A DNA stretch of 64,000 nucleotides, taken from assembly GCF_050320075.1 (NCBI RefSeq), contig NZ_CP190018.1; one strand, 5' to 3'. The position numbers were made by a program. The DNA comes from Escherichia coli. Lineage in GTDB: Bacteria > Pseudomonadota > Gammaproteobacteria > Enterobacterales > Enterobacteriaceae. Below are positions 51,001 through 54,000 of this stretch, piece by piece; position 1 is the stretch's first letter, and each line of letters starts with the position of its first letter.

Positions 51001-54000
51001 GCACCCGGTGATACCGGGTACAGCGGGGTGATCAGCAGCCTGGGTGACAGGACAGCGGCCGCCCCGGTGTGGTGGGTGGTGGTGCATAAACTCTCCAAAG
51101 GTGTGACGCAGGCTGCTGTGGCGTCCATTCCCTGCCGGCCGGATATACGGCAACTGCGTTTTGAGGTGCAGCGGACATTCATTGCGAACCGGGCGCTGGC
51201 CGACGAGCTGCAGGACTTCACCAACGACTGTTACTCGCTGGCGCTGTATCAGTGGAAGCAGCGTGACCAGGGGATGACGAAGGACAGGAAGCTGCTTTCG
51301 GATATCAGCTGGATTGGCAGCAGTACGTTCATGCAGGGTGACTACGGGACACTGCAGTCGAAAATGCCACGTGCGGCATTCCCGTGGAATAGCGCCCGTG
51401 ACAGCGGCCGTCCGGATACGGGACGGGGGGGTTATCCCACATGCCGTGAATGGTGGAGTGACAGTAGTGTCGGGCTGAAGAAGCGGGTGACAGAGGAAGT
51501 TGATGAAGGACTGTGGTTACGTATTTCGGCGGCAATGAAAATGCTGGGGAACGCGCAGGCGAACTACCAGGAGGAAATCATCAAACGTCTGGTGAGTCCG
51601 GCGAACCTGACCCTGTCACAGGGGGGTGAGGTGTACCGTGGCTATGGCGGTAATGCAGATATGACGGCGGCGAATGCGGTCACGCGTGCAGCAGGCACGG
51701 CGGGTTCTGCCGTTGCTAGTCTGGCAGCGTTTCCGGCGTTTGATGCGATGCGGCAGGCGCTGCCGATGGTGCAGAGTATTCTGCTGATGGCGGTGTATAT
51801 CATGCTCCCGTTGATTCTGGCGTTTGCGGCGTATGAATTCAGCACGCTGATCACACTGACGTTTGTGGTGTTTGCACTGAATTTCCTGACGTTCTGGTGG
51901 GAGCTGGCGCGGTGGCTTGACAGCTGGATGCTGACGGCCTTGTACAGTTCGGACACGCATTCCCGTGTGAACATGATGGGGCTGCAGAACACGTCGGACG
52001 ATATCATCATGAATTTTGTGATGGGCACGATGTTTATTGTATTGCCAGCAATGTGGCTGGGGGCGTTGACATGGGCCGGAATTAATATCGGGGATGGGAT
52101 TAACCGAGGTATTTCGAATGGCGTAAATCAAGCCCAAGAAGCTGGCTCTAAAGGTGCAAATTTATTGAAAAAATAAATAGTATGCAGGAGAAATCTACTT
52201 AAGAGGGTATTTCTCCTGCTAATTTTACAACTTATATTCTGTATCGCCAGTCACTATATAATCACCGTCAATACGAGTTTCAAGTTTTGGGCATGAATAA
52301 GAGCCAATTACCTTGATTAATCTATTTTGGATTTGGTCTGAGGTTGAGTTCTGAACTGTATCAGGTTCAGGTAAAGCCGAGAAAACCGCGCAAGCAGCTT
52401 TTTTCAGCAGAGAGCTGAAAGTCCATGGGGTATCAGATGTTTTGCAACTCCACATTGCTTTTTCTGTTTCATTGTTCATCGCGTGCCTCCTGTAAGTGGA
52501 TAATCATCCTGGTACTATCATACGTGTTGTATGATAAATGTTCAATGCTTGAAAATCCAGGTGTAATTGTTTGATTTTACTCTTCTTGCTGTACAGCCTG
52601 TGATGTGGGCCAGGACGTGACACTGCATGTCACAATAGCTCCAGGAACTTCAGCCTCAGTCCTGCTGAACATTGTGTGATTAATTTTTAAAAATGCGAAA
52701 AGAATAATCTCTCTTTTTAGTCGTCCGGCTATGCCTTAATTCTCCCTGAATCAAACCCTGTATCAGGAGAAGCTGAATGAAAATATCAAAACTGGTTGTT
52801 GTGGCTACAGTATGTTCCACGCTTAGTGCATGTTCCGTGGAAGAGATGGCTGCTGTGAACAAGAAAATCAGTGACGGTGCATTTGCTGTGACGAAAGCGC
52901 TCAATGGGGGAACGGGCTACGCGGATAATGGTATGCCGATCCTTAACAAGCAATTGCCGCCGGAGCAGGATAAACGCGAAAATGTTATTGATGTCCCTGT
53001 TGATGTGGATACCGCAGCAGGCCGACTGAAACGCTATTACAAGTTTTACTCGAATGATGAGGTAAATGCGATCCGCAATAACGGCACAACTGACGGAAAA
53101 TGGCAGGCAAGTGCGATTATTGACAATGGGCATATCTGGGATGCGATGCCGGGCAGTTACTACAAAATGGGAGGAAACTGGCGTAAAGGCAGCTTTGATG
53201 ATCACCTGACGATTGAGGTGGAAAAGAACGGTAAGGGAAGCCGGGTCTATATCACCTATGCTTCAGCTTCTCAGGCGCATTTGCAGGCAAGTTCTCTTGA
53301 GCCTCTGTTTAAGCGAGTGAAGGATGTGGCTGAAGGAAAGGTTCGTTGATGAGCACGCCACGGGCAAGCCCTTATGGCTAAAGGAGAGGGAGATTGCCCG
53401 TGGCGGCCCACTTTTTTTAATCATTTTTTTACCATGTTGTCCAGTATTTTTACATAAGTGAAACATCTGGTGTTGTTTTCTGTTCATCGTGCTGGAAGTT
53501 ACAGGGCTTGTAATTGAACGGGGAGAGATGTAATTTACGTGCGCAAAAATTTTACTCAAGGGGGAGAAAACCGATGAAACCGAATATCCATCCTGAATAC
53601 CGTACTGTGGTGTTCCACGATACCAGTATCGATGAGTACTATAAAATTGGTTCGACCATCAAGACTGAACGTGTGATTGAGCTTGATGGTGTCACCTATC
53701 CGTACGTAACAATTGATGTTTCCTCTAAGTCGCATCCTTTCTACACTGGCAAACTGAGAACTGTTGCTTCAGAAGGTAACGTGGCGCGCTTTAACCAGCG
53801 TTTCGGTCGTTTTGTTGACACCAAAAAAGGCGCATGAGCAGAAATCGATCACAGGCGCGATTGATATGGAAAGGTATTGCATGAGTGTCTGAGGTCGGTT
53901 ATTTTACGTTTCACAAGAAAGAAGCACTTAAACAGAAACTCACAGTCCATATTCCTTCATCCCCGGTTACGGGGATTTTTTTTAGCTGTTGTCTGGGGAG

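What the first reader, a model, noticed from the sequence alone, without database searches (positions are those of the whole stretch)
52080..52220. Abrupt composition switch at the 3' end of the traG-like gene marks a backbone/cargo junction
The last ~100 nt of the traG-like gene (ending 52176) are markedly AT-rich relative to the rest of the gene, and the gene is followed at once by a bidirectional hairpin (52185-52220) and AT-rich accessory genes. This suggests the native 3' end was replaced by inserted DNA, consistent with a cargo hotspot downstream of traG in this ICE family.
Basis: inference. Interest (0 to 1): 0.35.

Follow-up and report, generated by a model that had tools for sequence, protein, structure and literature searches.

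The report
Swappable TraG-tail / partner-gene specificity cassette
The AT-rich end of this conjugation gene is one allele of a ~360-bp swappable cassette, not a scar of inserted cargo; the cassette re-codes the tail of the channel protein TraG together with the tail of a small facing gene, the pattern expected of a self-recognition ("entry exclusion") lock on a mobile element.

Summary
At window 52080 GC falls from ~0.57 to ~0.40, and third-codon-position GC falls from 0.70 to 0.29. A strong hairpin follows at 52184-52219.

In E. coli ICEs (integrative conjugative elements) whose flanks are 96-100% identical, identity collapses to 20-55% only between ~52040 and ~52400, then returns to 96-100%. 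The lipoprotein gene and L31 gene downstream are shared. So this is an allelic cassette, not a backbone/cargo junction. It holds three things: the last 31 codons of traG, a type-specific bidirectional hairpin, and the 3' two-thirds of a convergent 84-aa gene (52225-52479).

I saw six cassette types (A-F) shuffled over three backbone lineages, and TraG tail and partner C-terminus always changed together. Within a type, dN/dS is 0.21-0.27. In 80 loci across Enterobacterales the same tail-to-tail layout recurs, mostly with a two-transmembrane partner that weakly matches DUF3742. Where the partner gene is absent (Xenorhabdus), the tail diverges no faster than the rest of TraG. All co-resident ICE pairs I examined carry different types.

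The best reading is a multi-allelic TraG (VirB6-like)/partner recognition pair analogous to TraG-Eex or TraG-TraS entry exclusion. The cassette and its co-variation are shown. The exclusion function is inferred.

The parts
50680..52080 (+). Conserved body of the traG gene (TraG_N / VirB6-like, last gene of the MPF-G mating-pore operon), codons 1-467, ending in the invariant W465-A466-G467.
   Evidence: Pfam PF07916 at 260.7 bits. RefSeq annotation of the identical E. coli YZLc1-3 locus sits among TIGR037xx ICE genes. Invariant columns in the 59-sequence alignment. 96-100% nt identity to L002/L003/L004 up to about 52030.
52081..52176 (+). Hypervariable TraG C-terminal tail (31 codons plus stop; type A allele: INIGDGINRGISNGVNQAQEAGSKGANLLKK). 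Basic, and inferred to be cytoplasmic.
   Evidence: GC3 0.29 against 0.70 for the body. 25-31% aa identity to the tails of TraGs that are 99-100% identical in the body. The type A tail recurs in L007 on an 80%-identity backbone. Net charge is positive in 98% of tails and the preceding loop is acidic.
52040..52400 (.). The whole swappable cassette: end of the last TraG transmembrane helix, the tail, the hairpin, and the 3' two-thirds of the convergent gene.
   Evidence: Sliding identity to L002/L003/L004 is 0.96-1.0 up to 52030, 0.76-0.84 at 52030-52079, 0.18-0.57 from 52080 to 52400, and 0.88-1.0 from 52403 onward. See also alignment A1.
52184..52219 (.). Type-specific hairpin between the two convergent stop codons; a probable bidirectional intrinsic terminator.
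   Evidence: dG -18.0 (+ strand) and -17.0 (- strand) against -6.4 +/- 2.2 for shuffles. Every cassette type has its own strong hairpin (-14 to -24 kcal/mol), with related stems within a type. U-rich stretches follow on both strands. The simple scan did not call it.
52225..52395 (-). Variable C-terminal part (residues ~29-84) of the convergent small protein, type A allele.
   Evidence: Completely different sequence in L002, L003, L004, L005 and L009 but related in L007 (...SRIDGDYI.SG.TEY(K/R)L). Within-type dN/dS is 0.20-0.47.
52396..52479 (-). Conserved N-terminal 28 codons of the small protein (MNNETEKAMWSCKTSDTPWTFSSLLKKA). The full gene is 52225-52479, 84 aa, with no transmembrane segment and no Pfam or NCBIfam family.
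   Evidence: Conserved in all E. coli loci and in 15 database clusters, those with a source-given name being E. coli or Salmonella. dN/dS is 0.10-0.22 where measurable. No family hit. No hydrophobic segment.
52486..52545 (-). Expression signals of the small gene: AGGAGG ribosome-binding site (52486-52491), sigma-70-like promoter TTGAAC-17-TATGAT (52545-52517), and the palindrome ATCATACgtgttGTATGAT (52517-52535) overlapping the -10 hexamer.
   Evidence: Promoter scan; the number of such sites is not above the shuffle expectation, so this is weak on its own. Both hexamers and the palindrome are conserved in the 85%-identity backbone L005 (alignment A1). The RBS is read directly.
52777..53349 (+). 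Syntenic 190-aa putative lipoprotein gene (signal peptide ending LSAC). It is conserved flank, showing that the backbone continues past the cassette.
   Evidence: The same protein accession (WP_029490347.1) is annotated in L001 and L002. 52% identity (E 4e-68) to the gene in the same position of the 73%-identity E. coli ICE L011.

Best explanation
Window 52040-52400 is one allele (type A) of a multi-allelic, tail-to-tail specificity cassette at the distal end of the mating-pore operon of an MPF-G (ICEclc/PAPI-1/ICEHin1056-class) ICE in E. coli. The cassette encodes three things together: the ~31-residue basic, probably cytoplasmic C-terminal tail of the VirB6-like channel protein TraG; a bidirectional terminator hairpin; and the variable C-terminal part of a small convergent protein that has its own sigma-70-like promoter. 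Homologous recombination in the conserved sequence on either side (the last TraG transmembrane helix and the first 28 codons of the small gene) moves whole cassettes between ICE backbones, so both variable ends always change together. I propose that the two variable ends form a cognate recognition pair that works like TraG-Eex of SXT/R391 or TraG-TraS of F. On this view the small protein, made in every ICE-carrying cell, recognises the TraG tail of an incoming donor of the same type and blocks redundant transfer, and rare types are favoured, which maintains many alleles. Shown: the cassette, its sharp borders, the co-variation, type sharing across backbones and genera, purifying selection within types, and the link between tail hypervariability and presence of the partner gene. 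Inferred: physical interaction, cytoplasmic location of the tail, and the exclusion phenotype.
For: (1) Sharp cassette: identity to sister ICEs is 96-100% on both sides and 18-57% inside 52080-52400.

(2) TraG body against tail identity: window-L002 1.00/0.31, window-L003 0.99/0.27, window-L004 0.99/0.25, L007-L009 1.00/0.26.

(3) Six types A-F are spread over three backbone lineages: I carries A, B, C, D; II carries E, F, D; III carries A, C, F. The tail type and the partner C-terminus type were concordant in every case.

(4) Type D and several other motif pairs recur across genera. Examples are E. coli L004 with Rosenbergiella L014, and Kluyvera/Brenneria/Morganella tails '..TGVxKPQETGG..KKxxxL' with partner ends 'GYGYYxGSDDITSExLD'. 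The partial Mantel correlation of tail against partner C-terminus, controlling for TraG body, is r=0.44 with 0/2000 permutations reaching it.

(5) Within-type dN/dS of the cassette coding sequence is 0.21-0.27. For type C the cassette dS of 0.35 is well below the backbone dS of 0.97, which indicates cassette transfer between backbones.

(6) The same roughly 385-bp cassette with 100%-identical flanks occurs where the partner is a 131-141-aa two-transmembrane protein, L010 against L011. In 80 Enterobacterales loci about 45 have such a convergent membrane partner 23-90 bp from the traG stop. These match DUF3742 weakly, at 20-26 bits against a cutoff of 27.2. P. syringae ICEs annotate a DUF3742 gene convergent to traG at 41-60 bp (PMC8895235).

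(7) Natural control: where no convergent gene exists (about 27 loci, mainly Xenorhabdus) the tail is as conserved as the body, 0.87 against 0.30 tail identity at 80-90% body identity. Those elements occur in 2-3 copies per genome.

(8) Co-resident ICEs carry different types. These are TUM9803 B+C on 98%-identical traG, SCU-171 F+A, STEC2018-553 E+F, and S. marcescens 106R with 97% body and 41% tail identity.

(9) Tails are basic (+2.6) and partner ends acidic (-3.6) and aromatic-rich.

(10) Precedent: exclusion factors TraS and Eex target the VirB6 homolog TraG, the determinants are cytoplasmic, and the exclusion gene lies next to its target gene (PMC11493245). PAPI-1 shows an exclusion index of ~298 with no exclusion gene identified (PMC5297154).
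Against: No experiment links either protein to exclusion. [quoted passage not shown] It is not homologous to the membrane-type partner (hhalign probability 0.1%), nor to any Pfam or NCBIfam family, including TraS/Eex-type models.

Co-variation of two segments 50 bp apart is expected from linkage alone, so the Mantel result does not prove co-evolution. The 'no partner, conserved tail' control is essentially one clade (Xenorhabdus) plus a few pairs. The co-residence result has little power: with six roughly equal types, three of three differing pairs has a chance probability of about 0.58.

The tail's cytoplasmic location rests only on the positive-inside rule, and the AlphaFold model was poor (pLDDT 55). 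The promoter match is not above the shuffle expectation.
Confidence: 0.45

Rival explanations
1. One reading: inserted cargo DNA overwrote the native 3' end of traG, so 52080 is the backbone/cargo junction at a cargo hotspot.
For: There is a real and abrupt GC and GC3 drop at 52080. Homologs do not share the tail residues. Gene content further downstream differs between the more distant backbones.
Against: Conserved DNA (96-100%) resumes at about 52400 and continues for kilobases. Tails are homologous, with conserved G471 and G481. The AT-rich tail is seen in every E. coli locus and type examined. The same cassette type sits on different backbones. The cassette is under purifying selection within types.
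Confidence: 0.05
2. The cassette is real and swapped as a unit, but the pair acts within one cell. On this view the small protein is a cis-acting partner of the TraG tail (assembly chaperone, gatekeeper or inhibitor of its own pore). Diversification would then be driven by conflict between co-resident ICEs, for example avoiding cross-inhibition or hijacking of the pore, rather than by exclusion of incoming DNA.
For: A soluble cytoplasmic partner and a probably cytoplasmic tail can meet only inside one cell. Co-resident ICEs with 97-98% identical traG (nt or aa) but different cassettes do exist. All the co-variation and selection evidence fits this reading equally well.
Against: There is no precedent that I found for type-specific cis regulators of VirB6. 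The gene has its own constitutive-looking promoter and is convergent to the transfer operon, which fits a function needed while the transfer genes are silent. In SXT/R391, cytoplasmic determinants nevertheless act between cells.
Confidence: 0.25
3. Neutral explanation: the two convergent 3' ends encode unconstrained, disordered tails that drift quickly under AT-biased mutation, and the 'types' are merely old lineages mixed by recombination, with no recognition function.
For: Tails and partner ends are low-complexity and predicted with low confidence. The region is AT-rich. Linkage alone can produce co-variation.
Against: Flanks at 99-100% identity with 20-55% inside cannot arise by local drift. 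Within-type dN/dS of 0.21-0.27 shows constraint. Where the partner gene is absent the tail evolves no faster than the body, so tails are not intrinsically unconstrained. Types persist across genera.
Confidence: 0.15
4. A polymorphic toxin/immunity arrangement, with a variable C-terminal toxin tip on TraG and an adjacent immunity protein.
For: A variable C-terminus beside a variable small gene superficially resembles CdiA-CT/CdiI-type loci.
Against: The tail is only 31-54 aa in the E. coli loci, Gly/Ala/Gln/Lys-rich, with no recognisable domain. The small gene is convergent rather than downstream in the same orientation. Only its C-terminal part varies.
Confidence: 0.02

Closest known systems
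TraG-Eex entry exclusion of SXT/R391 ICEs (exclusion groups S and R) and eexC/traG of IncA/IncC plasmids
   Same: The donor-side determinant lies in the VirB6-like TraG and the recipient-side determinant in a small protein encoded next to traG. Specificity falls into discrete allelic groups, and the determinants are reported as cytoplasmic (PMC11493245 and PMC5812530). Here the variable tail of TraG and the variable end of the adjacent small protein likewise form discrete co-varying types.
   Different: The T4SS class differs (MPF-G, not MPF-F). TraG here is the short TraG_N-only form, and the variable part is its extreme C-terminal tail. At least six types occur in E. coli alone, against two groups in SXT/R391. 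The window's partner has no membrane segment and no detectable homology to any known family. The two determinants are packaged tail-to-tail in one ~360-bp exchangeable cassette. No phenotype has been measured.
TraG-TraS entry exclusion of F-like plasmids
   Same: [quoted passage not shown]
   Different: In F-like systems TraG carries a periplasmic C-terminal domain that this TraG lacks (PMC9797247 abstract). From my own knowledge, not checked here: traS lies downstream of traG in the same orientation, and the specificity region is internal to that long C-terminal domain.
DUF3742 family proteins encoded convergent to traG in Pseudomonas MPF-G ICEs
   Same: The position and orientation are the same: 41-60 bp from the traG stop in P. 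syringae ICEs (PMC8895235). The E. coli, Pectobacterium, Serratia and Proteus relatives found here have 115-150-aa two-transmembrane proteins at that position with weak DUF3742 matches, and the same variable C-terminus and TraG-tail cassette.
   Different: The window's 84-aa protein is not a DUF3742 member (no Pfam hit; hhalign probability 0.1%). It is a non-homologous occupant of the same slot. The three papers in the searched library that mention DUF3742 only list it in annotations.
ICE variable-region hotspots (backbone/cargo junctions), as in SXT/R391 hotspots or the ICEclc-family cargo regions
   Same: There is a composition drop at the end of a conserved transfer operon, and gene content downstream differs between distant relatives.
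   Different: Homology resumes after 360 bp, and the variable segment is an allelic replacement of equivalent coding sequence rather than an insertion of extra genes.

Membership tests
TraG_N / VirB6-like pore protein of MPF-G ICEs (Tfc18 class) | Significant match to the Pfam TraG_N model over its full length | tested here: met
   PF07916 at 260.7 bits (cutoff 36.1), residues 9-483 on model positions 2-459 of 462.
TraG_N / VirB6-like pore protein of MPF-G ICEs (Tfc18 class) | Encoded within an MPF-G transfer operon (TIGR03745-03758-type ICE genes and a VirB4-like ATPase) | tested here: met
   RefSeq annotation of the 100%-identical locus in E. coli YZLc1-3.
TraG_N / VirB6-like pore protein of MPF-G ICEs (Tfc18 class) | Polytopic membrane protein with a large central loop | tested here: met
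   Hydropathy of the aligned family shows hydrophobic helices at 9-46, 68-88, 361-384, 387-407 and 442-467, and a 247-aa domain with 4 invariant Cys. The AlphaFold model is low-confidence.
Entry-exclusion pair (VirB6/TraG target plus Eex/TraS-type factor) | Exclusion-factor gene lies next to the gene of its VirB6-like target | tested here: met
   The small gene 52225-52479 is convergent, 48 bp from the traG stop. The criterion comes from PMC11493245.
Entry-exclusion pair (VirB6/TraG target plus Eex/TraS-type factor) | Discrete specificity groups defined by matched variation in both proteins | tested here: met
   Six co-varying types over three backbones. Partial Mantel r=0.44, 0/2000. Linkage cannot be excluded as the cause.
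Entry-exclusion pair (VirB6/TraG target plus Eex/TraS-type factor) | The factor is an inner-membrane protein or lipoprotein | tested here: not met
   The window's 84-aa protein has no hydrophobic segment or lipobox. This feature is met by the positional equivalents in about 45 related loci, which have two transmembrane segments.
Entry-exclusion pair (VirB6/TraG target plus Eex/TraS-type factor) | Sequence homology of the small protein to a described exclusion protein family | tested here: not met
   No Pfam or NCBIfam match at E<=0.1. A direct comparison with the SXT Eex sequence was not run.
Entry-exclusion pair (VirB6/TraG target plus Eex/TraS-type factor) | Presence in the recipient lowers transfer from donors of the same type (exclusion index > 1), specifically by type | not testable with these tools
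   This needs mating assays. The only indirect evidence is that co-resident ICEs differ in type.
DUF3742 (PF12553) | Match to the family model, or profile-level homology to members | tested here: not met
   The window protein has no hit. hhalign of the non-TM family against the two-TM family gives probability 0.1%. The two-TM relatives score 20.4 and 26.5 bits, just under the 27.2 cutoff.
   Identity returns to 0.88-1.0 from 52403 onward, and the same downstream protein accessions are annotated.
Rho-independent bidirectional terminator | GC-containing stem-loop followed by a U-run on both strands | tested here: inconclusive
   The stem is strong on both strands. The + strand has UUUU 3 nt after the stem, and the - strand has a U6 run about 10 nt after it. 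The consensus scan did not call it.

The most novel reading that the evidence does not exclude
The TraG-tail/partner cassette is the so far unidentified entry-exclusion (self-recognition) locus of MPF-G ICEs, the class that includes PAPI-1, ICEclc, ICEHin1056 and many enterobacterial islands. On this reading DUF3742-type proteins and the soluble 84-aa type are interchangeable 'Eex' carriers, and there are many exclusion groups maintained by negative frequency-dependent selection and exchanged as one 360-bp unit. Because one partner class is soluble and the tail is probably cytoplasmic, it would also imply that the C-terminus of a donor VirB6-like protein becomes accessible to the recipient cytoplasm during mating.
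Probability: 0.35. Interest if true: 0.8.

Novelty: new variant of a known kind. Interest (0 to 1): 0.6.

Why it matters
MPF-G ICEs are among the most abundant conjugative elements in Proteobacteria and carry virulence, catabolic and resistance cargo. PAPI-1 shows exclusion with an index of ~298 and no exclusion gene has been identified (PMC5297154); I found no exclusion determinant described for the class. A compact, typable, co-varying TraG-tail/partner cassette gives a concrete candidate that simple swap experiments can test.

It would also explain which ICEs can stack in one genome, and it offers a marker for 'exclusion groups' in genomic surveillance. It adds a natural series of six or more allelic pairs for studying how VirB6-type channel proteins are recognised, including the open paradox of cytoplasmic determinants acting between cells.

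For annotation practice, it shows that an abrupt GC switch inside the 3' end of a backbone gene need not mark a cargo insertion.

Tried and rejected
1. Cargo-junction reading: rejected, because homology resumes at about 52400.

2. Homology of the 84-aa protein to known families: Pfam and NCBIfam gave nothing. The 5.8-billion-protein search found only 15 clusters, those with a source-given name being E. coli or Salmonella, with no Pfam domain and only 'hypothetical protein' labels where named.

3. Homology between the soluble partner family and the two-transmembrane (DUF3742-like) family: hhalign probability 0.1%. Short C-terminal motifs such as [YW]DG.PYK.P are shared by eye, but I did not establish that as homology.

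4. AlphaFold2 of TraG with a 59-sequence alignment: pLDDT 55, pTM 0.36, too poor to settle topology or tail structure, so no fold search was run.

5. The consensus terminator scan missed the hairpin, and the promoter count was not above shuffles. I rely instead on folding energies and on conservation.

6. Co-residence test: all examined pairs differ in type, but the test has little power (chance about 0.58 for three E. coli pairs).

7. The plasmid collection gave only distant traG matches in Pantoea, Serratia and Erwinia that end at query 1334-1403, none reaching past the tail boundary (query ~1401), and I did not pursue it.

8. The primary SXT paper (PMC1951900) is not held in the library. 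Its statements are taken second-hand from PMC11493245 and PMC5812530.

9. Literature searches for an exclusion system in ICEclc/PAPI-1/pKLC102/ICEHin1056 or for DUF3742 function found none. The library lacks most subscription journals, so absence is not proof.
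Full report
**What the window is.** The region is 100% identical to a chromosomal island of E. coli YZLc1-3. RefSeq annotates there the full set of MPF-G ('ICEclc/PAPI-1/ICEHin1056-type') genes: TIGR03745-03758 families, a conjugative ATPase, and finally a 'TraG N-terminal domain-containing protein'. That last gene is window 50680-52176 (498 aa) and matches Pfam TraG_N at 260.7 bits. TraG_N proteins are the VirB6-like inner-membrane channel component, Tfc18 in MPF-G (PMC4027160).

**Checking the observation.** The composition switch is real and sharp.
- GC in 200-nt windows is 0.54-0.62 through traG and falls to 0.36-0.42 from about 52050 onward.
- Third-position GC is 0.70 in codons 1-467 and 0.29 in the last 31 codons, z about -5 by my arithmetic on those numbers.
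- The hairpin is at 52184-52219. Its dG is -18.0 kcal/mol against -6.4 +/- 2.2 for shuffles, and it is equally stable on the other strand.

**What the switch marks.** I compared the locus with E. coli ICEs whose backbone is 98-99% identical (L002, L003, L004).
- Nucleotide identity in 50-nt windows is 0.96-1.0 up to 52030 and 0.76-0.84 at 52030-52079.
- It is 0.18-0.57 from 52080 to 52400, then 0.88-1.0 from 52403 onward.
- The genes beyond carry the same protein accessions in these elements: the 190-aa putative lipoprotein, a type B L31 and further hypothetical genes.

The AT-rich stretch at the end of traG is therefore the left part of a ~360-bp replaceable cassette with conserved DNA on both sides. 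It is not the point where backbone gives way to cargo.

**Anatomy of the cassette.** It has three components.
1. The last 31 codons of traG, directly after the invariant W465-A466-G467.
2. The hairpin.
3. The 3' two-thirds of a convergent 84-aa gene (52225-52479, minus strand), whose stop lies 48 bp from the traG stop.

The first 28 residues of that small protein (MNNETEKAMWSCKTSDTPWTFSSLLKKA) are conserved in every relative. The rest is entirely different between cassette types.

The small gene has an AGGAGG ribosome-binding site and a TTGAAC-17-TATGAT promoter-like site, overlapped by a perfect palindrome; all are conserved in an 85%-identity backbone. Each cassette type carries its own strong hairpin, -14 to -24 kcal/mol.

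**Types and their distribution.** Among the E. coli loci I fetched there are six types. Each is defined jointly by the TraG tail and the small protein's C-terminus.

| Type | Loci |
|---|---|
| A | window, L007, and by full-length match to L007 (sequence not read) L097 |
| B | L002, L096 |
| C | L003, L008, L093 |
| D | L004, L095 |
| E | L005/L006, and by full-length match (sequence not read) L099 |
| F | L009, L094, L098 |

They are shuffled over three backbone lineages that differ by 15-20% in traG.

| Backbone lineage | Types carried |
|---|---|
| I | A, B, C, D |
| II | E, F, D |
| III | A, C, F |

In every case the tail type and the partner type go together. TraG bodies that are 99-100% identical carry tails only 25-31% identical.

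Within a type, across backbones, the cassette coding sequence shows dN/dS of 0.21-0.27. The conserved 28 codons of the small gene show 0.10-0.22. Both are therefore real, constrained coding sequences. For type C the cassette's synonymous divergence (0.35) is far below that of the backbone (0.97), which indicates cassette transfer between backbones. For type A it is at least as old as the backbones.

The tails are not unrelated DNA. All 59 aligned relatives have a basic tail (about 38 aa on average) with near-invariant G471 and G481 and a central GG. All ten E. coli loci, whatever their type, have a low-GC3 tail of 0.10-0.30.

**Generality.** A scan of one genome per species returned 80 loci in Enterobacterales.
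- **Membrane-type partner.** About 45 loci have, 23-90 bp after the traG stop, a convergent 115-150-aa gene. It has a basic N-terminus, two transmembrane helices and a variable, acidic, aromatic-rich C-terminus. These score just below the Pfam cutoff for DUF3742. A DUF3742 gene is annotated in exactly this position in P. syringae ICEs (PMC8895235).
- **Soluble-type partner.** Three loci from other genera (L013-L015), like the E. coli loci, have the short type seen in the window. It is not homologous to the membrane type (hhalign probability 0.1%).
- **Same cassette with the membrane partner.** E. coli L010 and L011 are 100% identical on both sides and 36-54% identical over about 385 bp spanning the TraG tail and the partner's C-terminus.
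- **Motif pairs across genera.** Tail and partner motif pairs recur in different genera. The partial Mantel correlation of tail against partner end, controlling for TraG body, is 0.44 with 0 of 2000 permutations reaching it.
- **No partner.** In about 27 loci that lack a convergent gene, mostly Xenorhabdus, where a two-partner-secretion gene follows traG, the tail evolves no faster than the body. Tail identity is 0.87 against 0.30 at 80-90% body identity. These elements occur in two or three copies per genome.

**Mechanism.** The shown facts amount to a discrete, multi-allelic, recombining cassette. It changes the C-termini of a VirB6-like channel protein and of an adjacent, independently transcribed small protein in lockstep, is under purifying selection within alleles, and is old enough to be shared across genera.

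That is the signature of a cognate recognition pair under diversity-maintaining selection. The closest functional precedent is entry exclusion. TraS of F and Eex of SXT/R391 in the recipient recognise the donor's TraG. Their determinants are cytoplasmic, the exclusion gene abuts the gene of its target, and elements fall into exclusion groups (PMC11493245 and PMC5812530).

Three further observations fit this reading.
- By the positive-inside rule the tail here is cytoplasmic. Its net charge is +2.7 and positive in 98% of tails, while the preceding loop is at -3.8.
- For the two-transmembrane relatives, a basic N-terminus followed by two helices puts the variable C-terminus in the cytoplasm as well.
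- Tails are basic and partner ends acidic.

Co-resident ICEs carry different types, as an exclusion model predicts: TUM9803 (B+C on 98%-identical traG), SCU-171 (F+A), STEC2018-553 (E+F) and S. marcescens 106R. This test has little power, however.

**Caveats.**
- No phenotype is known.
- The window's partner is soluble, unlike most described exclusion factors.
- Linkage alone produces co-variation over 50 bp.
- The no-partner control is largely one clade.
- The structure prediction failed (pLDDT 55).

A cis-acting role is the main rival: a type-specific gatekeeper or chaperone of the element's own pore, diversified by conflict among co-resident ICEs. It fits the same data. Neutral drift and toxin/immunity readings fit poorly.

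**Comparison and novelty.** The TraG protein is a clear member of TraG_N/VirB6-like proteins. The small protein belongs to no described family. The system works like TraG-Eex or TraG-TraS, but it fails the membership features of membrane localisation and homology, so I do not file it as an Eex or TraS member.

I found no description of an exclusion determinant or of this cassette for MPF-G ICEs. PAPI-1 is reported to exclude with an index of ~298 without an identified gene (PMC5297154). I rate it a new variant of a known kind, pending experiments.

Noticed in passing
window 52777-53349 (+): A 190-aa putative lipoprotein (MKISKLVVVATVCSTLSAC...) lies directly after the cassette. It is conserved in synteny even in the 73%-identity E. 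coli ICE (52% aa identity to the L011 ORF) and has no Pfam or NCBIfam family. It could be a second, surface-level exclusion or mating factor.
   Followed up: partly
window 52517-52535: A perfect palindrome ATCATAC-gtgtt-GTATGAT overlaps the -10 hexamer of the small gene's promoter-like site. It is largely conserved (two substitutions) in the 85%-identity backbone L005, and is operator-like, which suggests the small gene is regulated.
   Followed up: no
window ~53574-53837 (+) (L001 14895-15158): The ICE carries a 'type B 50S ribosomal protein L31' paralog just downstream. Related ICE backbones also carry an L31 gene at this place (L005, L006, L009, L097, L098).
   Followed up: no
window ~55000-55800: A very AT-rich block (GC 0.27-0.31) covers a minus-strand hypothetical ORF (55026-55706). 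It is the lowest-GC stretch in the 46-58 kb region profiled.
   Followed up: no
L057-L083 (Xenorhabdus spp. loci): Xenorhabdus genomes hold 2-3 copies of a related MPF-G traG with an almost invariant tail (VRMGDMAGMMSQGVGQVRQSAGMFGQMVMQKMLSKGK) and no convergent partner gene. In L076 a ShlB/FhaC-type two-partner-secretion transporter follows traG instead.
   Followed up: partly
L095 3022-4412 (E. coli NCTC9112): An IS1414 (IS256-like) copy is inserted about 90 bp after the traG stop, separating traG from the type D partner gene.
   Followed up: no
P0005, P0010, P0011, P0013: Several database variants of the small protein are 52-aa forms that diverge from the full-length variants after about residue 30-45 and end early (possible frameshifts). 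This suggests the partner gene is sometimes inactivated.
   Followed up: no
L094 3463-4103, L099 2271-2500, L005 6573-6713: In backbone II relatives the cargo immediately after the small gene includes toxin-antitoxin modules (PemK/MazF with MazE; Hok/Gef). The true variable region therefore starts right after the partner gene.
   Followed up: no
L001 25537-26721 (beyond window ~64.2 kb): In the identical YZLc1-3 record an ISApl1-family (IS30-like) transposase pseudogene and a traF gene lie further downstream, and an ArdA antirestriction gene sits at L001 21720-22229 (window ~60399-60908).
   Followed up: no
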